From a virus (taxonomy: Duplodnaviria; Heunggongvirae; Uroviricota; Caudoviricetes): a stretch of 49,114 nt of DNA. The translations under genes and the position numbers were made by a program. Where the stretch lies: the IMG/VR virus record IMGVR_UViG_2513237200_000008; one strand, given 5' to 3'. Under the pieces are notes generated by a model, which was given only the letters and a program-made list of their open reading frames with translations, did not search any database and was not told the DNA's origin. Position 1 is the stretch's first letter. The number at the start of each line of letters is the position of its first letter. Of this stretch, positions 22,363 to 49,114 are shown piece after piece.

Positions 22363-23176
22363 GTTTGCCCTTCTCCGTTAAAAATTCGTCGGGTAGTTTC
22401 TGAGGGGCGTAGATCGGCAGAGCATCGCAACTGCAATAAACCTCCTCCCCGGCAGCAGTGATTTCGTCATAAAAACCATATACGGGCTTAATAAGCCCCT
22501 GCTCCAGCGCCCACGAATCGCGGAGGAGATAAATTTTCTCGTCGCGCTCTTTGTGGTCCTGTCGGTATTTGTAGCCCGGACGCCGCCAGTTAGAATGCCA
22601 GCGCAGAGCAATCGCACCACTCTGAACAGCCAGCAGATACTTAACGTTGCTCGCCAGCTTATGTCCCTGGTCAATTGCCACCCGGCGACTGATAAAATCC
22701 ATATCCTTCACGGACTTCTGAAAACCGGCCTTCACTTCCCGGCGATCAATTTCGCTCACCCCGTCAGGCGGAATGGACGTAACCCATCCCTGAAAACGCT
22801 GTATGGTTTTCTCGATAGCCTGTTCGCGGTTGAGTTTTATCAGGTTGGCACTGGCGAAAATTCGCCTGTCTAGTTCCTTGCGAAACTCAGGTTTCAGTTT
22901 TTCAACAGTGATTTTTTTAGGGCCGTCAGGAGGCTGATCCCGTAATGCCCCGCCGTCGATGACAAGACGGCTGTAGATAGCGGTGAGGTGTTTTCTGGCT
23001 ACGGTATCATCAGGGGTTTCTCGCTGAGCGGCTACACGGAGTTTCCGGCACCATTCGAGCAATGATTTTTCGCTATCCCACCCGTGATTTACGTAGTAGT
23101 TAACGGCATCCGTCAGAACCTCATATAGCGTCCTGATCCGTTTCTTCTCCCTCACCGCCCGGCTGGAAATTGCCAT
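22343..23176 (-). CDS. Head morphogenesis protein (Mu F-like / SPP1 gp7-like); start placed at the Met with an AGGAGA RBS
   Basis: ORF directly downstream of the portal gene, overlapping its 3' end. Confidence 0.55.
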   Translation of the reverse strand: MAISSRAVREKKRIRTLYEVLTDAVNYYVNHGWDSEKSLLEWCRKLRVAAQRETPDDTVARKHLTAIYSRLVIDGGALRDQPPDGPKKITVEKLKPEFRKELDRRIFASANLIKLNREQAIEKTIQRFQGWVTSIPPDGVSEIDRREVKAGFQKSVKDMDFISRRVAIDQGHKLASNVKYLLAVQSGAIALRWHSNWRRPGYKYRQDHKERDEKIYLLRDSWALEQGLIKPVYGFYDEITAAGEEVYCSCDALPIYAPQKLPDEFLTEKGKREFNRA

Positions 23177-24560
23177 CAGGCGTCTCCTGCTTCGGTGGTT
23201 CATAATTCGCCAGCGCGTCCACATCAATGATGAGTGGAGCTTCGCCATAGGTTTGCGTGGCATTAACAAGGCTTGCCAGCCATTCAGTGACGGCGGCACG
23301 GTTTTCAGGATCAACCTGTGGCGACACGGCAGAGAAAAGTGCTATCGCCTGTTGAATCACTTTACTGTCGCTTTCCCGGCGTTTGTCCGGCGACTCCTCC
23401 ACCAGCTCCTGCCATGTCGCGGTAAATTCACGTCGCCACTGGTAAAACGTGGTTTTATAGTCATCAGTTATGATGTCCGGGTAATCATTTTTCAGCGACT
23501 GATAAAATTCCTCGTTCCAGGCGATGTACTGCACCAGGCGTTCGAAATAATCCATCACGGGTTCAATCTGCTGGCGTACACCATCGATATACTGGCTGAT
23601 GGCTTTCGAATCTTCGGTCCCCTCACCGAAACCATTCGAAAAGGCTTCCTCTTTGATGAGGATCGCCGGAACGTCACTCCCTGACGCAATATCGGAAATA
23701 ATATTGTCGCGTGCAGCGTTTAGCGCACCATCGATGTTTTGTAGATTTAGCGAGGTAACGTCCTCATCCTTCCCGATACTAAGCACACCTTTATTTTTTG
23801 CCTCTTTGACGTATTCCCTTTTTCGTCCCGTGGCGGCAGCCATGATCCCGTCAAGTTTCGAACCGTACTGCACAACTTTAGCTACCAGTACGCCCGCCTT
23901 CTGGCTGACGAGATCATTCGCCTCCATCGTGTTGATATAGGATTTCAGGGAATAAAGAACGCGCTGAAACACACTTCGTCCGGTGAATCCGAACGATGAA
24001 CTCTGAAACTCCAGATAAATCGGTGTGCCGTTGAAGATTTTCAGTGTGCGTGACGGATGCCAGTCTTTCCCACCAATCTTCAGTTTTTTATTGGCTTCCT
24101 GGAAAAACGGGCTGTTGGGGTTCTGGTCAGTCACCATCGAACCGGAAGCGTTCAACGGGTCCCACGCGTTGATATACACGTCATCTTCTGTCAGTCCGAA
24201 CGTCGGAAGCGGTTCACGACATGGAACGCTGTCGGTGCCCACGCCGATCGCTGCAGCACCGTAGCAACGAGACAGAAAAAACAGATTTTTAATCTTCTCG
24301 TTGACCTTCATGCGTTCCCATACCTCCTGAAAACGCCGCACAACCCTCTCGTCAGGGTCTGTCTCCACGTTATACTGGCGCGGCTTACACATCGCCATCA
24401 GTATGGGTTTTTCGACAAGTTTTCCGCCCAGAGGATGGAATTGCCACAGCTGCTTACACAATTCATAGCCAATGTCGGTTCCCGGCTGAATTTCTTCAGC
24501 CTCAAGAATATGCATCAGTGCTGAACCGAGGCCGCCAGTAATCTCGATCTCTGCCATCAA
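23121..24560 (-). CDS. Portal protein
   Basis: 479 aa, immediately downstream of terminase large subunit; acidic C-terminus. Confidence 0.7.
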   Translation of the reverse strand: MMAEIEITGGLGSALMHILEAEEIQPGTDIGYELCKQLWQFHPLGGKLVEKPILMAMCKPRQYNVETDPDERVVRRFQEVWERMKVNEKIKNLFFLSRCYGAAAIGVGTDSVPCREPLPTFGLTEDDVYINAWDPLNASGSMVTDQNPNSPFFQEANKKLKIGGKDWHPSRTLKIFNGTPIYLEFQSSSFGFTGRSVFQRVLYSLKSYINTMEANDLVSQKAGVLVAKVVQYGSKLDGIMAAATGRKREYVKEAKNKGVLSIGKDEDVTSLNLQNIDGALNAARDNIISDIASGSDVPAILIKEEAFSNGFGEGTEDSKAISQYIDGVRQQIEPVMDYFERLVQYIAWNEEFYQSLKNDYPDIITDDYKTTFYQWRREFTATWQELVEESPDKRRESDSKVIQQAIALFSAVSPQVDPENRAAVTEWLASLVNATQTYGEAPLIIDVDALANYEPPKQETPDGNFQPGGEGEETDQDAI

Positions 24561-31281: not shown

Positions 31282-31356
<75 letters not shown>

Positions 31357-31359
31357 ATA

Positions 31360-31435
<76 letters not shown>

Positions 31436-32623: not shown

Positions 32624-33222
32624 TACGCAAACTCCAGCAGCTGCGCGGCCACATTTTCGACTTGTTCCGGAGAGGAAAATTTACGGAACAGAATCCAGTT
32701 CCACAGCACATTCAGTACAGATTTATAAACCTGCTGAAACACGGTTTCGTCCATATTCGCAAACGCGATAGATTTCGCCCGACGCCCACGGCTACCATCA
32801 GGATAAAGATGCTCGGTGTAAAATCCGGCCTGAATGGTTACCCACTCGCGGAAAGCCTCAAACGACTTTAGCAATGCCGTATCCCGGGTTCTGCGTGTCG
32901 CAACTGTATTTAGATATTGCTCTGCGGCATCACTCAGGGCTGGTGTGTGTTCCCGACCAACTGATTCGCACAGGTAATCCACGAAACCAGACAGCAGTTC
33001 TCGTTCGCGAGGCGTGATCGCCCCACCGACCGGAGTCCAGTAATCGAATCCCAGTTGCAGAAGTTTGAAAAAACGCTTGTGGAATGCGTAGTTACGCACA
33101 CGCTTAAAGTCTGCGTGTATCCACTCACCTATTTTGATTTGATGCAGAAAATCGCAACTCTCCGGCGTCGCCGGGAGAAGTAAACCAGAAGAGGTTTGTT
33201 TGACCAGTTGTATATGCGCCAT
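32623..33222 (-). CDS. Nin-region protein (DUF1367-like)
   Basis: 199-aa ORF translationally coupled to the downstream gene. Confidence 0.45.
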   Translation of the reverse strand: MAHIQLVKQTSSGLLLPATPESCDFLHQIKIGEWIHADFKRVRNYAFHKRFFKLLQLGFDYWTPVGGAITPRERELLSGFVDYLCESVGREHTPALSDAAEQYLNTVATRRTRDTALLKSFEAFREWVTIQAGFYTEHLYPDGSRGRRAKSIAFANMDETVFQQVYKSVLNVLWNWILFRKFSSPEQVENVAAQLLEFA

Positions 33223-33495
33223 TTCTCAATCTCTCGATGGCGCAGTGCAGCAGATGCCAGTTGTTCAGGCTGACGTATAAAGTATAAATAAACTGATTCC
33301 AGTGTAAAGCCCTCACATTGATGGAATAAAAACCAAACAACAGATTGCTGGGATAAAAACAACGCTTATTATTAAAAGCGGTTAAACAAATTAAATTTTA
33401 ATGTTATGCAAATCTGCCAGATCACCATAATATCTCATTTGAAAACCGTTGAAATAACAACCCTATCAGGATTAATCATATTAAGGTGAGTAAAT

Positions 33496-33582
33496 ATGGA
33501 AAACAACAAATCTGCACATTACGTTCCTTTTTTATCTGTAATACTTTTTGTTTTATGCTGTGCGTGGGCATTATTTTTATAA
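33496..33582 (+). CDS. Small hydrophobic peptide (28 aa, MENNKSAHYVPFLSVILFVLCCAWALFL)
   Basis: Found by manual translation; AAGGTGAG RBS. Confidence 0.2.
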   Translation: MENNKSAHYVPFLSVILFVLCCAWALFL

Positions 33583-33690
33583 AAATATTCACAGATAAAA
33601 TATACCCGCCGAAGCGGGTTAAGTGCGGGTGCGTTGAGGATGCCTGACACATCAGAGGTGGCGGGAGATTACTCTCCCGCCTGGTCACTC

Positions 33691-33846
33691 TTACTCTCTA
33701 GATTCGTAGTCTACGAAGACAGCGACCTCCGTCTGGCCGGTTCGGATTCGTACCTCGCAGAGGTCTTTCCTCGTTACCAGTGCCGTCACAATGACGGTTA
33801 AACAGATGACGATCAGGGCGATTAACATCGCCTTTTGCTGCTTCAT
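33691..33846 (-). CDS. hok: Hok-family type I toxin (HokD/RelF-like)
   Basis: 51 aa MKQQKAMLIALIVICLTVIVTALVTRKDLCEVRIRTGQTEVAVF..., near-identical to Hok/Gef family sequences from memory. Confidence 0.8.
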   Translation of the reverse strand: MKQQKAMLIALIVICLTVIVTALVTRKDLCEVRIRTGQTEVAVFVDYESRE

Positions 33847-33901
33847 AGCCTGCTTCTCCTTGCCTTTCGGCACATAAGAGGCTAATCTCTATGTGTCGCA
33901 T
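33698..33901 (-). CDS. mok: mok-like overlapping reading frame (modulation of killing)
   Basis: 67-aa ORF overlapping hok in another frame and starting upstream, as in hok/mok/sok loci. Confidence 0.45.
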   Translation of the reverse strand: MRHIEISLLCAERQGEAGYEAAKGDVNRPDRHLFNRHCDGTGNEERPLRGTNPNRPDGGRCLRRLRI

Positions 33902-33930
33902 AGATATGGCCTCAGATTAATGTTAAGCGT
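33850..33930 (+). ncRNA. sok: Expected position of Sok-like antisense RNA (boundaries not determined)
   Basis: Inferred from canonical hok/mok/sok organisation only; no promoter or terminator mapped. Confidence 0.25.
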
Positions 33931-34056
33931 CTTGCCGGACGCGTAATGTTAACTGGGGCTTTTCTCTATCTGCCTTTTGGTGTTCATGCCTGAGACAGAT
34001 AGCCTCAAGCACCCGCAGCAATTCTACTTAACCCCCGTCACCTCGCCAATATAAAA

Positions 34057-34146
34057 TCAATCAGAAAGGCGATCCATAAGAACAACAGCAAGACAATAAA
34101 TTGCCATTACAGCCGCAATAGCTAGCGCACATTTGAGAACCAGCAC
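34057..34146 (-). CDS. Small hydrophobic ORF (29 aa, GTG start; VLVLKCALAIAAVMAIYCLAVVLMDRLSD)
   Basis: AGGAGG Shine-Dalgarno 5 nt upstream of GTG; found by manual translation. Confidence 0.25.
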   Translation of the reverse strand: MLVLKCALAIAAVMAIYCLAVVLMDRLSD

Positions 34147-34476
34147 GACAACCTCCTGTATTGGACGTACACCAGTCCTGATAAATATGAGGATGTCTCG
34201 TCAGTGATTCAATGCAACTATTGGGTATAGTTTCTGTGATTTTGTTCTGTAGAAATGGAACACAACAACCAGTCACCATCCGCTCTTCTTTAAATGCGCT
34301 AAGTCAGACACAAGCCAACATTTTAGTTGGCTTTGAGCGTTCTGGAGATGCGACATTGCTAACAGCCTTTTGAATGAACTAATCGGGGGCTAGTCATAAC
34401 GGGCATAGCAGTCTCCAAGTAAGCAAGACTTTGCCATACAGAATGGAGCTAAGTTATTCATCAAATCTCCTTAAAT

Positions 34477-35454
34477 TCATAAAGTTAAATGCGGCCCTAA
34501 ATACGCCACATATATCCGCTGATTTACTGCGTCAGCATAAAAATGTAGGCGGTAACCGTCAGGTAGTTTTACATGATTCTCGCAATAGACCTGCCGTCCA
34601 TCATCTAACCAAAATATGCGCTCTTTCTTCTTTTTGGAGGCATTATTTACACTGTCCGATTCACCGCTAACTTCAGCAGCCAAACCCAAATCTCTTAAAT
34701 ATTCATGACGGTACTCTACATACTCACCTGAACGCCATTTCTCACTAAACGATTCCAACACATTTAGCGCATCTCGTGCCTTGAACAAGACATTTTGCCT
34801 AGCAGACCAACCTTGTAGACTTGTACCTATTTGATTTGACAACAAAGTGAGATGAGGAAACAAATCTGCTCTTTTCAGCCAGATATCCTTAGCAGTACTT
34901 AACAACGTATTACGATGTTGTTTGAGTTCATCTCCATGCACATCCAAGCTCGCAGAATTACTCAGATTTAAAATCGTTTCATCCCTTTGTTCTGGTATTG
35001 CATCAAGCTCGAAAACCCATACTTTAAAATGGCTATTTGTCCAAGTAGCTAAAGCCGTAAAACTAGCAAGAAAAGTTTTAAAATAAAACGCTGCTAATAG
35101 CACCGCTTTACCTGTATCTTCCCCTGGCAAGCCAACTTCTAATACATCACCTAAAGTTTCAATATCCACGGTTTCAAAGAGAGGCTGTTTCGTTTCAAGA
35201 GACTTTAGAAATCGACACCAATCCGCAAGTTCTGCAACTTTGCTCGCAGAGGCAAGCCAATTGCGCACAAAATATCCGTTAGCCAGCTCCAATCCCATTA
35301 GCGACTTGTCTTGATCTTCATCGATGAGCAAAATTTTCAGCCCAGCAGTTCGGCAGACCTTAAGAACAGTAAAGAAAGCCAATAGTCCTTCATCTGCATC
35401 CTCTTTGCTAGCAAATGGCAAAGAATGATGGTTCAACACAATTCCATTACTCAT
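34477..35454 (-). CDS. Third gene of candidate defense operon: 325-aa protein with no motif I recognise
   Basis: ATGA start/stop overlap with the upstream ATPase gene; AT-rich. Confidence 0.6.
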   Translation of the reverse strand: MSNGIVLNHHSLPFASKEDADEGLLAFFTVLKVCRTAGLKILLIDEDQDKSLMGLELANGYFVRNWLASASKVAELADWCRFLKSLETKQPLFETVDIETLGDVLEVGLPGEDTGKAVLLAAFYFKTFLASFTALATWTNSHFKVWVFELDAIPEQRDETILNLSNSASLDVHGDELKQHRNTLLSTAKDIWLKRADLFPHLTLLSNQIGTSLQGWSARQNVLFKARDALNVLESFSEKWRSGEYVEYRHEYLRDLGLAAEVSGESDSVNNASKKKKERIFWLDDGRQVYCENHVKLPDGYRLHFYADAVNQRIYVAYLGPHLTL

Positions 35455-36560
35455 AACAGATGATCCAACTCCTTATCCCATTGGTCAAAGAAGCCTTCCG
35501 GCCAACAGTCTATTCGTCCCTCATCATCAATATTGGGGTACATGACTTCTGAGGCGTGAATGGAGTTATGAACATCTCGCTGTAAGAAAAAGACTTTGAC
35601 ATCGTCAGCTGCAACCACTTTCTGCTTCACCGCAACCCGTATACCGTTGAGAAAATGATCAGAATGAGATTCAACGATTAATTGCACGCCATTATTCGCA
35701 GCAATGGAGCACAATTTACCCATCAAGGATTGCCCAGCGGGATGCAAGTGTGATTCTGGGTTTTCAATAATCAGCAAATCACCTTTTGCCGCACTTAGTA
35801 TACTGGTTACGACAGGTAACACATAACTTAATCCAAACCCCACATTCTGTGGTTTAAAGTCTTCGGTGGTGTCTTTCCCTTGGTTAAAAGAGTAACTAAG
35901 ACTCACCGAATTAAACTGAGGCTGCGCTACTGCTTTAATTTTTAACCCTGGCGTAATATCCGACATCCATGCTTCAATATTAGAAAGCAAAGTCCCTGAA
36001 ACAGCCTTTTGATGGCGTAACGCTTCTATTTCCAGGTCTTTAGCGCCATTAACCGCGATAAAATGAACTGCAAATTCGCCATGATGACCAAGTGATTTTA
36101 AATCACGGATATGAAACTCAGACAACTGGTGATGGCTTTGTGGGCCTAACCTATCGGCACATAAATACTGAAAATTAGAGTTAAATAAGCTTAATAATTC
36201 TGAATCACCGTCAATACCAGATTTACGCAGCGGCAGCAGATCTGAGTCATGTTGATAATCAAACTCAAACCGTGTTGGCTGTTCTTTCTCGAGCCATTTA
36301 ATGGTAAAAATAATCTCTTCTTGTTCACTAAAACTAGAGAGCGCGTCTTTACCCGTACCGATATTGACATAATCACCATTTAACAGCAAACCCTTAGTTT
36401 TAAGGGTATTGCGTTCATAAGACTGCCTTAAAAGCAATAAACTTTGCACAAGCGTTGATTTTCCCATGCCATTAAGGCCTGAGAACAGATTCAGATTACC
36501 CAGTGGAAAACTGGCATTTAACAAGGTTTTAAAGTTTTGAATATTAATAAACTCAATCAT
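35451..36560 (-). CDS. ABC-type AAA ATPase (AAA_15/AAA_21-like with DUF3696-like C-terminus)
   Basis: Walker A GLNGMGKST near the N-terminus; LLIIENPESHLHP; C-terminal ESHSDHFLNGIRVAV; 8-nt overlap with the upstream gene. Confidence 0.7.
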   Translation of the reverse strand: MIEFINIQNFKTLLNASFPLGNLNLFSGLNGMGKSTLVQSLLLLRQSYERNTLKTKGLLLNGDYVNIGTGKDALSSFSEQEEIIFTIKWLEKEQPTRFEFDYQHDSDLLPLRKSGIDGDSELLSLFNSNFQYLCADRLGPQSHHQLSEFHIRDLKSLGHHGEFAVHFIAVNGAKDLEIEALRHQKAVSGTLLSNIEAWMSDITPGLKIKAVAQPQFNSVSLSYSFNQGKDTTEDFKPQNVGFGLSYVLPVVTSILSAAKGDLLIIENPESHLHPAGQSLMGKLCSIAANNGVQLIVESHSDHFLNGIRVAVKQKVVAADDVKVFFLQRDVHNSIHASEVMYPNIDDEGRIDCWPEGFFDQWDKELDHLL

Positions 36561-37680
36561 TAAGCATCTCTTTAATCAAAGCATTGACTTTTTCATACCG
36601 TATTTCCACATGCTCTTTTCGCTGAGTGGAGTAGCTAATAACATTAATAAATTCAGCATCTTCCAATAACGTCTGCACCTTTTTTTGAAACTTTTTTTGA
36701 TTATAAACCAAGCGGTTAAACTCGTTTTCAGTTAATTTCACCAACATAACCATCCAGACTTCAAATAGTGTTGCATTTTTTGACCGTCTTCTTGATGCAG
36801 GGTTTTTTTCAAAACCCTTTTCTCCTAACAGTTGGTAACAGCGCTCTATTGCAGTTGAATACTTAGCTTTAAACTCTGCACGGTAGGCATCATCACCTTT
36901 TTTGATATCTTCCATGGCTTTATCTAAAAACGAAGAGATTTCTTTTTTGTTTTTAGGGTCTAAATAATCAAAGCGATAGAACGCCCAGAATCGCAATACC
37001 AGTTCCTGATCCTTCATACGTTTGGAAAGGTCACCTAGCATGGCTTTCGAGCATGCTGAATTGGCTAACTCTTCGAGCAATTCTCTGTCTCTTGGCTTAG
37101 CGAGCGCATTACGGATCTCTTGATTATTTAGAGTTAAGCCACCTGTATTGATCCGGCGAAACACCGAATACTTAACGTCCTCAGGCGTACCCGGCTTAAT
37201 CATGTACACAGTAACAGGACATTCTTCAATACGGCGTTGATATTGACGATGTAATTTATCGAAGGTTTTACCATTAAGGTCTGTTAAGAACTCCAGTCCA
37301 TTGAGACGAAGCTTTTTATCTAACACAAACTTGCGAATCGTAGATAACCGCTGCAAGCCATCCACAATTAGCCAATTATTTTCATCGGACGCATCGAAGT
37401 AGAAAGCAGGTAATGGGAACCGAATCAAAATTGATTCGATTAATCGGCTCATCTTGCGGTTATCCCATAACTCCGCATGGCGCTGAAAATCGGTATTCAT
37501 GTCGATCTCATTGTGCTGAATTCGCTTAATCAAGGCATCCAACGACTTCGGTTCAACGACGATATCAATATCAGTCGGGTTGAACGGGTGCATCACCTCA
37601 TCAAGCAGTTCCGGCTCTTCCTCTTCCGCACCTGGCGCAACCAACTCTTCATCAAGCTCGGTTTCTTGATAATCAACCAT
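36553..37680 (-). CDS. DUF262-like (ParB/GmrSD N-terminal-like) domain protein, first gene of candidate defense operon
   Basis: DGxQR-type motif in LIVDGLQRLSTI; acidic N-terminus; AT-rich. Confidence 0.65.
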   Translation of the reverse strand: MVDYQETELDEELVAPGAEEEEPELLDEVMHPFNPTDIDIVVEPKSLDALIKRIQHNEIDMNTDFQRHAELWDNRKMSRLIESILIRFPLPAFYFDASDENNWLIVDGLQRLSTIRKFVLDKKLRLNGLEFLTDLNGKTFDKLHRQYQRRIEECPVTVYMIKPGTPEDVKYSVFRRINTGGLTLNNQEIRNALAKPRDRELLEELANSACSKAMLGDLSKRMKDQELVLRFWAFYRFDYLDPKNKKEISSFLDKAMEDIKKGDDAYRAEFKAKYSTAIERCYQLLGEKGFEKNPASRRRSKNATLFEVWMVMLVKLTENEFNRLVYNQKKFQKKVQTLLEDAEFINVISYSTQRKEHVEIRYEKVNALIKEMLND

Positions 37681-47186: not shown

Positions 47187-47381
47187 ATGAGATATGACAA
47201 TGTTAAACCATGTCCATTTTGTGGTTGTCCATCAGTAACGGTGAAAGCCATTTCAGGGTATTACCGAGCGAAGTGTAACGGATGCGAATCCCGAACCGGT
47301 TATGGTGGAAGTGAAAAAGAAGCACTCGAAAGATGGAATAAACGAACCACTGGAAATAATAATGGAGGTGTTCATGTATAA
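47187..47381 (+). CDS. ralR: RalR (Lar): restriction alleviation protein / type I toxin (non-specific DNase)
   Basis: 64 aa MRYDNVKPCPFCGCPSVTVKAISGYYRAKCNGCESRTGYGG... matches Rac RalR from memory. Confidence 0.75.
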   Translation: MRYDNVKPCPFCGCPSVTVKAISGYYRAKCNGCESRTGYGGSEKEALERWNKRTTGNNNGGVHV

Positions 47382-47583
47382 AATTACCGCCACTATTGAA
47401 AAGGAAGGTGGCACTCCTACTAACTGGACAAGATATTCAAAATCTAAACTAACGAAATCAGAATGCGAAAAAATGCTCTCAGGTAAAAAAGAAGCAGGCG
47501 TTTCCAGAGAGCAGAAAGTAAAATTGATAAATTTTAATTGCGAGAAACTTCAGTCCTCGAGAATTGCATTGTATTCAAATTAA
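47362..47583 (+). CDS. ydaC: YdaC-like small protein (start uncertain)
   Basis: Position between ralR and xis as in Rac. Confidence 0.5.
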   Translation: MEVFMYKITATIEKEGGTPTNWTRYSKSKLTKSECEKMLSGKKEAGVSREQKVKLINFNCEKLQSSRIALYSN

Positions 47584-47878: not shown

Positions 47879-49114
47879 ATGTCTAAATTACCAACAGGTG
47901 TCGAGATTAGAGGTAGATACATTCGCATCTGGTTCATGTTTCGAGGAAAACGATGTCGGGAAACATTAAAAGGCTGGGAGATTACAAACAGTAATATTAA
48001 AAAGGCCGGAAATTTAAGAGCGCTGATAGTTCATGAAATAAACTCCGGTGAATTTGAGTATTTAAGACGTTTTCCCCAGTCCAGCACTGGGGCAAAAATG
48101 GTGACAACGAGAGTCATAAAAACGTTCGGAGAGCTTTGTGATATCTGGACAAAAATTAAAGAGACAGAGTTAACAACAAACACAATGAAGAAAACGAAAT
48201 CACAATTAAAAACACTCAGAATAATAATTTGTGAAAGTACCCCGATATCACATATTCGTTATAGCGATATCTTAAACTACCGGAATGAACTGCTGCATGG
48301 AGAAACGCTTTACCTGGATAATCCAAGATCCAACAAAAAAGGAAGAACCGTGCGCACAGTTGATAACTATATCGCCCTGCTCTGTTCGCTGTTGCGTTTT
48401 GCGTATCAGTCGGGATTTATATCAACCAAACCATTTGAAGGAGTAAAAAAATTACAGCGAAACAGAATAAAGCCTGATCCGTTATCTAAAACAGAATTCA
48501 ATGCATTAATGGAAAGTGAAAAAGGACAGAGCCAGAACTTGTGGAAATTTGCCGTTTACTCAGGACTTCGTCACGGGGAACTGGCAGCTCTGGCGTGGGA
48601 GGATGTGGATCTCGAAAAGGGAATAGTGAATGTCAGAAGAAACCTGACGATACTTGATATGTTCGGTCCCCCAAAAACAAATGCCGGGATCCGAACAGTA
48701 ACACTACTGCAGCCTGCTCTTGAAGCACTGAAGGAGCAATACAAACTGACCGGGCATCATCGCAAAAGCGAAATCACCTTTTATCATCGGGAGTACGGCA
48801 GAACCGAAAAGCAAAAACTGCATTTTGTTTTCATGCCCAGGGTGTGTAACGGAAAACAAAAACCTTATTACTCGGTAAGCAGTTTGGGGGCAAGGTGGAA
48901 TGCAGCAGTAAAACGTGCTGGTATTCGCCGCCGTAATCCGTACCATACGCGGCATACTTTTGCCTGCTGGCTGTTGACGGCAGGAGCGAACCCGGCATTT
49001 ATAGCCAGCCAAATGGGGCATGAAACTGCGCAGATGGTGTATGAAATTTACGGTATGTGGATTGATGACATGAACGACGAACAGATAGCCATGTTGAATG
49101 CGCGGTTATCGTAG
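47879..49114 (+). CDS. intR: Tyrosine integrase (Rac IntR-like), 411 aa
   Basis: C-terminal catalytic region with conserved R ... HxxR ... Y pattern (NPYHTRHTFACWLL, GHETAQMVYEIY); stop codon is the last three bases of the window. Confidence 0.85.
   Translation: MSKLPTGVEIRGRYIRIWFMFRGKRCRETLKGWEITNSNIKKAGNLRALIVHEINSGEFEYLRRFPQSSTGAKMVTTRVIKTFGELCDIWTKIKETELTTNTMKKTKSQLKTLRIIICESTPISHIRYSDILNYRNELLHGETLYLDNPRSNKKGRTVRTVDNYIALLCSLLRFAYQSGFISTKPFEGVKKLQRNRIKPDPLSKTEFNALMESEKGQSQNLWKFAVYSGLRHGELAALAWEDVDLEKGIVNVRRNLTILDMFGPPKTNAGIRTVTLLQPALEALKEQYKLTGHHRKSEITFYHREYGRTEKQKLHFVFMPRVCNGKQKPYYSVSSLGARWNAAVKRAGIRRRNPYHTRHTFACWLLTAGANPAFIASQMGHETAQMVYEIYGMWIDDMNDEQIAMLNARLS

What the first reader, a model, noticed from the sequence alone, without database searches (positions are those of the whole stretch)
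33691..33930. hok/mok/sok type I toxin-antitoxin locus in the nin region
A 51-aa ORF is near-identical to Hok-family membrane toxins (MKQQKAMLIALIVICLTVIVTALVTRKDLCEV...), with an overlapping upstream reading frame in the position of mok. Sok antisense RNA would be encoded on the opposite strand over the mok start. It sits directly beside the candidate defense operon, so the prophage carries a small cluster of addiction/defense cargo between Q and the replication genes.
Basis: partly seen in the sequence, partly recalled or inferred. Interest (0 to 1): 0.45.

Follow-up and report, generated by a model that had tools for sequence, protein, structure and literature searches.

The report
Intact hok/mok/sok toxin-antitoxin in prophage
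This is an ordinary, already well-known hok/sok "host-killing" toxin plus antisense-RNA antidote, sitting complete and undamaged in a Rac-type prophage of E. coli W; its closest relative, hokW-sokW, has already been tested experimentally.

Summary
On the minus strand, a 51-aa ORF (33691-33846) is a Hok/Gef toxin (Pfam E=4e-23). It is 96% identical to HokW of phage 933W/Sp5 and 92% identical to K-12 HokD.

The locus is larger than the reported span, about 33597-34049, and has every canonical element:
- the hok promoter and the 5' tac element
- a 67-codon mok frame with a GAGG ribosome-binding site
- the hok ribosome-binding site
- a protective 3' hairpin, the fbi element and a terminator
- on the plus strand, a 69-nt Sok gene (33895-33963) with its own promoter, covering the mok start

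Folding reproduces the published closed form (tac/fbi) and open form (tac/ucb, SDmok/dcb). The tac/fbi pairing covaries across 51 hok loci.

The window is 100% identical to the E. coli W chromosome and spans the whole Rac-site prophage. hok lies between the replication genes and Q, next to a Menshen (NsnABC) defence operon.

The kind is already known: hokW/sokW was annotated in 1999 and shown to work in 2021. No expression or toxicity was tested here.

Side notes:
- The Rfam "sok" model matches the hok leader strand, not Sok.
- Tyr47 sits in a perfect tRNA-Arg-like TadA editing loop.
- Two conserved small hydrophobic ORFs that RefSeq does not annotate flank hok.

The parts
34021..34049 (-). 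hok promoter: -35 TTGGCG (34049-34044), 17-nt spacer, -10 TAGAAT (34026-34021). Predicted +1 is G34014.
   Evidence: Found by the consensus scan, 9 of 12 matches. The -10 box and +1 align with the R1 TATGAT/GGCGCUU start and with the first position of the Rfam model.
33597..34014 (-). Full-length hok mRNA, about 419 nt, from the tac 5' end to the terminator T-run.
   Evidence: Alignment with 933W hokW, Rac, R1, hokC, hokB and hokD. The MFE fold is -169 kcal/mol and closed by 5'-3' pairing.
34003..34014 (-). tac (translational activator element), GGGUGCUUGAGG.
   Evidence: Pairs with fbi in the full-length fold at P=0.97-1.0. Pairs with ucb in the truncated fold and in the family consensus.
33955..33961 (-). 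ucb / anti-SD of mok (AAGCCCC).
   Evidence: In the full-length fold it pairs with the SDmok region. In the truncated fold it pairs with tac. The family consensus shows a compensatory U:A to C:G change. The element is defined in PMC9841398.
33895..33963 (+). Sok antisense RNA gene, 69 nt: a 13-nt single-stranded 5' tail, then a long terminator hairpin and UUUU.
   Evidence: Aligns with the annotated 71-nt sokW of AF125520, with a 2-nt deletion and 4 substitutions in the tail. Folds at -29.2 kcal/mol, z=-4.9, and 0 of 200 shuffles fold as well.
33860..33888 (+). Sok promoter: -35 TTGCCT (33860-33865), 17-nt spacer, -10 TAATCT (33883-33888).
   Evidence: Positional homology with R1 (TTGCGC-17-TATCCT) and 933W/Sp5 (TTGCCT-17-TAACCT). 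The Sp5 -10 box is the element mutated in the 'pro-less' construct that lost antitoxin activity; I worked this out from primer YO-421 in PMC8621323. The generic scan did not flag it.
33698..33913 (-). mok: SD GAGG (33913-33910), ATG 33901, 67 codons ending at 33698. It is out of frame with hok (offset 55 nt).
   Evidence: A weak Pfam DUF5431 match, E=0.023. In 48 of 51 unique hok loci an SD plus ATG at this position opens an ORF that crosses the hok start; no such start was detected in the other 3.
33878..33882 (-). dcb (GCCUC), which pairs with SDmok in the open form.
   Evidence: Truncated-mRNA fold. The conserved GGC/GCC stem is in the family consensus.
33691..33861 (-). hok: SD AAGGAG (33861-33856), ATG 33846, 51 codons, stop 33693-33691.
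   Evidence: Pfam HOK_GEF E=4.3e-23. RefSeq WP_000813259.1 'Hok/Gef family protein'. The exact protein is found on at least 1000 contigs.
33699..33713 (-). Predicted TadA A-to-I editing hairpin UAGA[CUACGAA]UCUA. The edited A would be 33707, in Tyr47 codon UAC (33708-33706), recoding Tyr to Cys.
   Evidence: The heptaloop is unpaired with mean P=0.94 and the closing pair has P=0.87. Family-wide there is one Cys plus one TACGAA-encoded Tyr. Editing of hokB/C/D/E is shown in PMC5630033 and PMC12214031.
33660..33681 (-). Stable 3' hairpin GGCGGGAGAGUAAUCUCCCGCC, the expected 3' end-protecting stem of the processed (truncated) mRNA.
   Evidence: Folds. Aligns with the R1 GGCGGGCGCAGGCCCGCC hairpin. 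Its role in R1 is described in PMC9841398.
33627..33639 (-). fbi (fold-back inhibitory element), CCUCAACGCACCC.
   Evidence: Pairs with tac: dG -21.5 kcal/mol, reached by 3 of 1000 shuffled tac sequences. It lies 51 nt after the stop codon, the usual family position, and covaries with tac across loci.
33597..33619 (-). Intrinsic terminator ACCCGCUUCGGCGGGU plus a U-rich tail.
   Evidence: Terminator scan. Conserved in Rac and in K-12 hokD.

Best explanation
This is an intact hok/mok/sok type I toxin-antitoxin module of the hokD/hokW lineage. It sits in the nin-type cargo region of an apparently complete Rac-site prophage of E. coli W. The mechanism below is taken from the R1 and Sp5 systems, and only the sequence features were tested here. 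A weak constitutive promoter makes a stable hok mRNA of about 419 nt. Its 5' tac element pairs with the 3' fbi element, which keeps the mok ribosome-binding site sequestered by ucb, so the full-length RNA is neither translated nor bound by Sok. Slow 3' trimming back to the protective hairpin (33681-33660) removes fbi. The leader then refolds (tac/ucb, SDmok/dcb) and exposes the mok start region. The 69-nt Sok RNA is made from the opposite strand. It is presumably unstable, by analogy with R1 Sok. It pairs across SDmok and the mok AUG, blocks mok translation and therefore the coupled hok translation, and the duplex is cut by RNase III. When Sok supply stops, mok and hok are translated. Hok inserts in the inner membrane and collapses the membrane potential. 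Full toxicity probably needs TadA editing of Tyr47 to Cys, which would allow a disulfide with Cys30 (inferred). The most likely biological role is the one shown for the 96%-identical HokW: Sok disappears on RecA-dependent prophage induction, Hok appears before the endolysin, and it hastens killing and lysis and raises phage yield. My own inference for the trigger is that hok is co-oriented with the early-right operon, so induced read-through transcription would collide with the convergent Sok promoter.
For: Toxin identity: Pfam HOK_GEF E=4.3e-23, with 96% identity to HokW and 92% to HokD. Leader: Rfam RF01794 at 112.8 bits over the full model. The DNA is 93.8% identical to the 933W/Sp5 hokW-sokW locus, where mokW, hokW and sokW are annotated. 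All elements align with R1, hokC and hokB. The full-length fold is closed by tac/fbi with P about 1.0. Truncated forms switch to tac/ucb plus SDmok/dcb, as in the published model (PMC9841398). A 19-sequence consensus recovers the same stems with compensatory changes. Across 51 unique loci, tac/fbi covaries: cognate dG is -20.4 against -15.4 for non-cognate tac classes. The Sok gene, promoter and terminator are homologous to sokW, and the Sok fold has z=-4.9. The hok promoter and terminator were found independently by the scan. The mok ORF crosses the hok start, as in the 48 family loci where a mok start was detected. Function in the close homologue: HokW is toxic, SokW neutralises it from its own promoter, Sok is lost and HokW is made on MMC/RecA induction, and phage release is about 2-fold higher with the locus (PMC8621323). 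The prophage looks complete, with int/xis, recET, repressor, replication, Q, lysis, terminase, portal and tail genes. hok shares its strand with the early operon.
Against: No expression, toxicity or processing data exist for this locus or strain, so everything functional is by homology. The Sok -10 box (TAATCT) matches only 3 of 6 consensus positions and the generic promoter scan missed it. The Sok 5' tail and the mok frame differ from hokW, with a 2-nt indel and 4 substitutions. Chromosomal hokA/B/C loci that looked intact failed to mediate post-segregational killing in earlier work (cited in bioRxiv 10.1101/2025.08.07.668861). The open/closed switch in silico depends on where the 3' end is placed: truncation at 33640 stayed closed. 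The transcriptional-interference trigger is my inference and is untested. A terminator-like hairpin at 34122-34103 could limit read-through.
Confidence: 0.9

Rival explanations
1. The locus looks intact but is functionally silent. It would be a hitch-hiking remnant, like most K-12 chromosomal hok loci, that is transcribed but never releases enough Hok to matter.
For: [quoted passage not shown] K-12 hokD, the positional counterpart, has lost its whole leader to relBE. The Sok -10 box is a weak consensus match.
Against: No element is damaged. The exact Hok protein is kept on at least 1000 contigs. The 94%-identical hokW-sokW is functional at single copy in a prophage (PMC8621323). In the 2026 survey, 42 of 45 tested Hok homologues were toxic.
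Confidence: 0.15
2. Its main role is defence of the lysogen against other phages by abortive infection. An infecting phage would shut off host transcription, the short-lived Sok would decay, and Hok would kill the cell before the phage completes. On this view it forms a defence island with the adjacent Menshen operon.
For: R1 hok/sok on a high-copy plasmid reduced T4 plating by 42% and plaque size by about 85% (cited in PMC8621323). The neighbouring genes are NsnA/B/C, the Menshen system. Prophage cargo regions often carry defence genes.
Against: hok is not enriched near defence systems (12% observed against 9.4% for random placement). The hok-Menshen junction is present in only 15 of 5426 E. 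coli genomes, while the hok block itself is in 1558, so the adjacency looks incidental. PADLOC has no model that hits Hok. The only prophage-borne homologue tested helped its own phage rather than blocking others. This role does not exclude the induction role.
Confidence: 0.2
3. It is a prophage-addiction module in the classical sense. Cells that lose the prophage by excision are killed by Hok made from the long-lived mRNA, which stabilises lysogeny.
For: This is the founding function of hok/sok on plasmid R1 (PMC9841398).
Against: It has not been shown for any prophage hok. Deleting hokW-sokW had no growth phenotype under normal conditions. Excision without lytic growth is rare, so selection on this function would be weak.
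Confidence: 0.15

Closest known systems
hokW-mokW-sokW of Stx2 phages 933W / Sakai Sp5 (AF125520; Takada et al. 2021, PMC8621323)
   Same: The DNA is 93.8% identical over 415 nt and the toxin is 49/51 identical. They share the same C-terminal VDYES variant with the CUACGAA editing loop, and the same tac, fbi, Sok hairpin (with its extra GC-rich stem) and Sok -35 box. Both are prophage-borne.
   Different: The Sok 5' tail has a 2-nt deletion and 4 substitutions, so it is 69 nt rather than 71 nt. The Sok -10 box is TAATCT rather than TAACCT. mok is out of frame here (55-nt offset, 67 codons), whereas mokW is an in-frame extension of HokW (57 nt, 70 codons). The sequence upstream of the -10 box differs, so the hok -35 box differs. 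In 933W the locus lies near one end of the genome, next to the 8.4-kb ORF L0134. Here it lies between the replication genes and Q. The last two residues are RE rather than EK.
hokD (relF) of the K-12 Qin cryptic prophage
   Same: It holds the same position in a lambdoid prophage, upstream of the rem/DUF1367-type genes and Q. The toxin is 92% identical. The 3' UTR, fbi and terminator are conserved.
   Different: K-12 hokD has lost its whole leader (tac, ucb, mok, Sok gene and promoter) to relBE; homology starts about 20 nt before the ATG. Its C-terminus is TAYEPEE, with a UUACGAA loop that is a poorer TadA mimic and is only 6% edited (PMC12214031). The window locus is in effect the undamaged form.
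hok/mok/sok (parB) of plasmid R1
   Same: Same architecture and the same named RNA elements (tac, ucb, SDmok, dcb, SDhok, fbi, protective hairpin, terminator, Sok promoter layout) in the same order and spacing. mok is out of frame, as here.
   Different: The toxin is only 41% identical. tac is GGCGCUU with fbi AAGCGCC, against GGGUGCUU with CAACGCACCC here. R1 Sok is shorter, since it lacks the 16-nt hairpin insertion seen in the Rfam alignment. R1 is plasmid-borne and its proven role is post-segregational killing.
hokC (gef)/mokC/sokC of the E. coli chromosome
   Same: The toxin is 78% identical, tac is identical, and the leader is very similar.
   Different: It is a chromosomal islet, not a prophage. 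In K-12 the 3' end is cut off by IS186. SokC is 59 nt and lacks the extra stem. mokC is in frame with hokC.

Membership tests
hok/sok (Hok/Gef) type I toxin-antitoxin family | A hydrophobic toxin of about 50 aa belonging to Pfam HOK_GEF. | tested here: met
   81.1 bits, E=4.3e-23, against a cut-off of 22. The invariant residues C15, T17, T25, R26, L29, E31, R35, G37 and E40-V41-A42 are present.
hok/sok (Hok/Gef) type I toxin-antitoxin family | An overlapping upstream reading frame (mok) with its own SD, whose translation runs across the hok start. | tested here: met
   GAGG, 8 nt, then ATG 33901. The 67 codons end at 33698 and cover the hok SD and start. The same arrangement is seen in 48 of 51 unique family loci; no mok start was detected in the other 3.
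hok/sok (Hok/Gef) type I toxin-antitoxin family | A cis-encoded antisense RNA gene (Sok) opposite the mok translation-initiation region, with its own promoter and terminator hairpin. | tested here: met
   Met at the sequence level. The 33895-33963 (+) region is homologous to the annotated sokW, sokC and sokB. The promoter is TTGCCT-17-TAATCT. The hairpin plus U-run folds with z=-4.9. Expression was not tested.
hok/sok (Hok/Gef) type I toxin-antitoxin family | Long-range 5' tac / 3' fbi pairing that closes the full-length mRNA. | tested here: met
   Twelve pairs, 34014-34003 with 33639-33627, at P=0.97-1.0. Covariation across 51 loci, and 3 of 1000 shuffled tac sequences reach the observed energy.
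hok/sok (Hok/Gef) type I toxin-antitoxin family | An alternative open fold of the processed mRNA (tac/ucb and SDmok/dcb stems). | tested here: met
   Predicted for 3' ends at 33650 and 33660 and recovered in the family consensus with compensatory changes. This is in silico only, and a 3' end placed at 33640 stayed closed.
hok/sok (Hok/Gef) type I toxin-antitoxin family | A leader matching the curated RNA family model (Rfam RF01794). | tested here: met
   112.8 bits against a gathering score of 59, over the full model 1-157. The model represents the hok leader sense strand.
hok/sok (Hok/Gef) type I toxin-antitoxin family | The toxin kills or depolarises cells when expressed, and Sok neutralises it. 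| not testable with these tools
   Shown for the 96%-identical HokW/SokW (PMC8621323). Not shown for this sequence.
hok/sok (Hok/Gef) type I toxin-antitoxin family | Slow 3' processing of a stable mRNA together with a short-lived Sok. | not testable with these tools
   Needs a rifampicin chase and Northern blots.
TadA-edited hok genes (Tyr-to-Cys recoding) | One of the two periplasmic positions is a hard-coded Cys. The other is a Tyr encoded by TAC within TACG, in a loop. | tested here: met
   C30 is TGC and Y47 is TAC-GAA, in the heptaloop CUACGAA closed by UAGA/UCUA. Editing itself was not tested. The rule comes from PMC5630033.
Menshen (NsnABC) defence system (the neighbour, not part of hok/sok) | Three co-oriented genes matching the NsnA, NsnB and NsnC profiles. 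| tested here: met
   PADLOC E-values: NsnA 3.5e-123, NsnB 8.9e-122, NsnC 1.1e-89. They lie at window 34477-37680 (-).

The most novel reading that the evidence does not exclude
hok may be the centre of a small cluster of three membrane-peptide genes. A conserved 29-aa hydrophobic ORF (34057-34146, minus strand) has a strong AGGAGG ribosome-binding site, and its stop codon lies 8 nt from the hok -35 box. In every sequence examined here (four phages and E. ruysiae) it lies directly upstream of this hok promoter variant. A conserved 28-aa hydrophobic ORF (33496-33582, plus strand) converges on the hok terminator. Neither is annotated in RefSeq genomes. orf29 could be a second membrane-active peptide, or a modulator whose transcription or translation feeds into the hok promoter. 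Together with a perfect TadA editing loop at Tyr47, that would make Hok release depend on more inputs than the classical Sok decay.
Probability: 0.12. Interest if true: 0.45.

Novelty: already known. Interest (0 to 1): 0.12.

Why it matters
It matters little for discovery. The family has been studied since the 1980s, this lineage was annotated in phage 933W in 1999 and shown to work in 2021, and the identical protein is already named in RefSeq. The result has three practical uses.

- **Annotation.** mok, Sok and the RNA elements are not annotated in E. coli W. The Rfam 'sok' hit would place the antitoxin on the wrong strand if taken literally.
- **Reference form of hokD.** This is the undamaged counterpart of K-12 hokD, which makes it a good natural template for studying a nin-region hok.
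- **Strain engineering.** E. coli W is an industrial strain. Its Rac-site prophage carries two type I toxins (hok and ralR) and a Menshen system, which is relevant when curing the prophage or assessing phage resistance.

Tried and rejected
- **Chance ORF or degraded locus:** rejected on the Pfam and Rfam scores and the intact elements.
- **Sok on the strand of the Rfam hit:** rejected. The model ends in the hok SD and AUG, so it is the leader sense strand. Sok was placed by homology with the annotated sokW, sokC and sokB.
- **Generic promoter scan:** it found the hok promoter and terminator but not the Sok promoter, whose -10 box matches only 3 of 6 positions. It also gave a plus-strand hit at 34028-34057 that I treat as chance; 3 sites were found against 2.1 expected.
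- **Permissive Rfam search of 33150-34550:** no further RNA family in the flanks. The ceN48 and CsrC hits are far below their gathering scores.
- **PADLOC on Hok:** no model hit.
- **Pfam on the two small ORFs:** nothing.
- **Unrestricted tac-versus-3'UTR duplex search:** it picked spurious distal sites in some R1-type loci. I restricted the search to 25-95 nt after the stop codon.
- **mRNA truncated at 33640:** it stayed in the closed fold. Only ends at 33650-33660, just after the protective hairpin, gave the open fold, so that prediction is soft.
- **'Anti-CBASS Acb1 family' label on a 478-aa late protein:** checked, and it is a portal protein.

Full report

Yes. On the minus strand, an ATG at 33846 opens a 51-codon frame ending at 33691. 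It reads MKQQKAMLIALIVICLTVIVTALVTRKDLCEVRIRTGQTEVAVFVDYESRE.
- It matches Pfam HOK_GEF at 81.1 bits, E=4.3e-23.
- A second frame starts at ATG 33901 and runs 67 codons to 33698, across the hok start.
- Rfam RF01794 'sok' matches 33841-34014 over its full length at 112.8 bits, against a gathering score of 59.

The reported span (33691-33930) is too short. It cuts Sok in half and omits the leader, the promoter and the whole 3' UTR.

**2. Where the window comes from**

The 461-nt region is 100% identical to the E. coli W chromosome, and 4941 of 5426 complete E. coli genomes have a related sequence.

RefSeq annotation of E. coli W shows that the window spans a whole prophage at the Rac site, from intR next to ttcA to the tail-fibre genes next to uspF. 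The gene order is:
- int, xis, rcbA, ralR, recT, recE, kilR
- the repressor pair, then ydaT/U/V (replication)
- DUF1627 and DUF977
- three cargo genes
- hok
- DUF1367, DUF1364 and DUF1133, the last being the Q-type antiterminator (labelled as such in a Rac record)
- tRNA-Thr and tRNA-Gly
- holins and endolysin, then terminase, portal, head and contractile-tail genes

So 'between the replication genes and Q' is correct. hok is co-oriented with the early-right operon.

**3. Anatomy**

I aligned the locus with 933W hokW, a Rac isolate, an R1-type plasmid, and K-12 hokD, hokC and hokB. Every named element of the hok system is present. Reading the minus strand 5' to 3':
- **hok promoter:** TTGGCG-17-TAGAAT at 34049-34021, also found by the scan.
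- **+1:** G34014, which is position 1 of the Rfam model.
- **tac:** GGGUGCUUGAGG (34014-34003).
- **A 5' hairpin.**
- **ucb:** AAGCCCC (33961-33955).
- **The Sok-target hairpin.**
- **SDmok:** GAGG (33913-33910), with the mok AUG at 33901.
- **dcb:** GCCUC (33882-33878).
- **SDhok:** AAGGAG (33861-33856), with the hok AUG at 33846.
- **Protective hairpin:** 33681-33660.
- **fbi:** CCUCAACGCACCC (33639-33627).
- **Terminator:** 33619-33604 plus a T-run.

On the plus strand, the Sok gene aligns with the sokW feature of AF125520.
- Its promoter is TTGCCT-17-TAATCT (33860-33888).
- The predicted start is G33895, and the RNA ends in a long hairpin followed by UUUU at 33963.
- The 69-nt RNA folds at -29.2 kcal/mol, z=-4.9.
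- The matching -10 box in Sp5 (TAACCT) is what Takada et al. mutated to abolish antitoxin activity. I reconstructed this from their primer sequences.

**4. Do the RNA switches work on paper?**

- **Full-length mRNA.** It folds with nt 1-12 paired to fbi at probability 0.97-1.0, with ucb over the SDmok region.
- **Processed mRNA.** Cutting the RNA just after the protective hairpin (3' end at 33650 or 33660) gives tac/ucb and SDmok/dcb stems instead. This is the closed-to-open switch described for R1 (PMC9841398). A cut at 33640 stayed closed, so this result depends on the assumed 3' end.

For family-level support I fetched 79 hok loci from species-representative genomes and located their leaders with a profile.
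- The best tac-fbi duplex lies about 47-57 nt after the stop codon in nearly all 51 unique loci.
- The partners covary. The hokD/W/C type has GGGUGCUUGAGG with CCUCAACGCACCC. The hokB types have GGGUGCCUGAGA with UCUCAUGGCACCC, or GGGCGCCUGAGA with UCUCAUGGCGCCC. The R1 type has GGCGCUU with AAGCGCC.
- Cognate pairs average -20.4 kcal/mol against -15.4 for non-cognate tac classes. For the window, 3 of 1000 shuffled tac sequences reach the observed -21.5.
- An RNAalifold consensus of 19 leaders recovers the tac/ucb stem, the 5' hairpin and the SDmok/dcb stem, with three compensatory pairs.
- A mok-position SD plus ATG opening an ORF across the hok start is found in 48 of 51 loci, in any of the three frames. 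No such start was detected in the other 3.

**5. What it is closest to**

- **By sequence:** hokW-sokW of 933W/Sp5. The DNA is 93.8% identical, the toxin is 49/51 identical, and the C-terminal VDYES variant and the extended Sok hairpin are shared.
- **By position:** K-12 hokD in Qin and hok in Rac isolates, all upstream of the Q module. K-12 hokD has lost everything upstream of its ribosome-binding site to relBE, so the window holds the undamaged form.

It differs from hokW in three ways:
- The Sok 5' tail has a 2-nt deletion and 4 substitutions.
- The same indel puts mok out of frame with hok, as in R1. mokW and mokC are in-frame extensions.
- The sequence upstream of the -10 box is different.

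**6. How it most likely works**

The mechanism is taken from R1 and Sp5.
- The full-length mRNA is inert.
- Trimmed mRNA is captured by Sok at the mok start and destroyed, partly through RNase III.
- When Sok is lost, coupled mok-hok translation proceeds and Hok damages the inner membrane.

In Sp5, Sok vanishes after mitomycin C in a RecA-dependent way. HokW appears about an hour before the endolysin, and phage release is about twice as high with the locus present.

I favour the same role here because the prophage looks complete. The authors left the trigger open. My inference is that read-through from the induced early operon, which runs in the hok direction, would collide with the convergent Sok promoter.

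Three alternatives are kept as rivals: a silent locus, abortive-infection defence, and classical addiction.

**7. The neighbouring 'defence operon'**

The three genes at 34477-37680 (minus strand) match NsnA, NsnB and NsnC of the Menshen system, with E-values of 1e-89 to 4e-123.

The adjacency looks incidental:
- The block just upstream of hok (34050-34339) occurs in 1558 genomes, but only 15 also carry the nsnC-proximal part.
- A recent survey found hok enriched in prophages (23% observed against 5% expected) but not near defence systems (12% against 9.4%).

**8. Extras**

(a) **TadA editing site.** Tyr47 (UAC, 33708-33706) lies in the hairpin UAGA[CUACGAA]UCUA.
- The heptaloop is identical to the tRNA-Arg(ACG) anticodon loop (my own knowledge of the tRNA sequence) and is predicted open, with mean P=0.94.
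- Across 51 loci, one of the two periplasmic positions is Cys and the other is a TACGAA-encoded Tyr: 45 loci are C/Y, 5 are Y/C and 1 is C/C.
- TadA editing of hokB, hokC, hokD and hokE, and the C29-C46 disulfide in HokB, are published.
- K-12 hokD has UUACGAA in a 9-nt loop and is 6% edited. The window and hokW variant should be a better substrate.

(b) **Two conserved small hydrophobic ORFs flank hok**. They are listed under items noticed in passing.

**9. Verdict**

The kind is already known, and the protein is already named in RefSeq as WP_000813259.1. Interest is low.

Noticed in passing
window 33841-34014 (-): The Rfam RF01794 'sok antitoxin' model matches the sense strand of the hok mRNA leader; it ends in the hok SD and AUG. 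The real Sok RNA is antisense to the middle of that match (33895-33963, plus strand). Annotating 'sok' straight from the Rfam hit would give the wrong strand and extent.
   Followed up: yes
window 33699-33713 (-): Tyr47 of Hok (UAC) sits in a predicted hairpin whose 7-nt loop, CUACGAA, is identical to the tRNA-Arg(ACG) anticodon loop, the TadA substrate. A-to-I editing would give Cys47, the partner for Cys30. K-12 hokD, which is 6% edited, has a poorer mimic. The window and hokW variant resembles the highly edited hokB site.
   Followed up: partly
window 34057-34146 (-): A 29-aa hydrophobic ORF that RefSeq does not annotate (MLVLKCALAIAAVMAIYCLAVVLMDRLSD). It has a GTG start and an AGGAGG ribosome-binding site, and its stop codon is 8 nt from the hok -35 box. 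It is conserved (12 of 87 columns vary) and lies directly upstream of hok in phages Tritos, Evi, mEp460_ev081 and HannyBb and in E. ruysiae. The exact protein is on 146 contigs, labelled 'hypothetical'. Function unknown.
   Followed up: partly
window 33496-33582 (+): An unannotated 28-aa hydrophobic ORF (MENNKSAHYVPFLSVILFVLCCAWALFL) with an AAGGTGA ribosome-binding site, convergent with hok. The length, start, stop and ribosome-binding site are kept in a relative that is only 77% identical and lacks an adjacent hok. The surrounding 378-nt block is in 1364 E. coli genomes with no annotated feature. This exact sequence is not among the roughly 15 billion proteins of the collection searched.
   Followed up: partly
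window 34477-37680 (-): The 'candidate defence operon' beside hok is a Menshen system: NsnA (DUF262), NsnB (AAA ATPase) and NsnC, with PADLOC E-values of 1e-89 to 4e-123. The junction with the hok block is seen in only about 15 of 5426 complete E. coli genomes.
   Followed up: partly
window 47187-47558: A second type I toxin-antitoxin pair in the same prophage. RalA antitoxin RNA is at 47380-47558 (minus strand; Rfam 219 bits, full length). It sits next to ralR, at about 47187-47381 on the plus strand, mapped from the RefSeq annotation.
   Followed up: partly
window 1-49114: The window is essentially one complete prophage at the Rac attachment site of E. coli W. intR (47879-49114) lies next to ttcA at one end and the tail-fibre genes lie next to uspF at the other. 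It has Rac-type early genes (recET, kilR, ydaT/U/V) and contractile-tail late genes.
   Followed up: partly
window 33899-33901 and the mok frame: A 2-nt indel just after the mok ATG puts mok out of frame with hok here, as in R1 and Rac. In the closest relative hokW, and in hokC, mok is an in-frame N-terminal extension of the toxin. Across 48 loci all three frames occur, which fits a model where the act of translation matters rather than the Mok peptide.
   Followed up: yes
window 23122-24558 (-): RefSeq names this 478-aa late protein 'anti-CBASS protein Acb1 family protein'. Pfam identifies it as a phage portal protein (Phage_portal_3, E=1e-12), and it sits right after the terminase. The label is probably misleading.
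   Followed up: partly
window 31282-31435 (-): Two tRNA genes, Thr-UGU and Gly-UCC, lie between the Q-type antiterminator and the lysis genes. This is the position where Stx phages carry their tRNAs.
   Followed up: no
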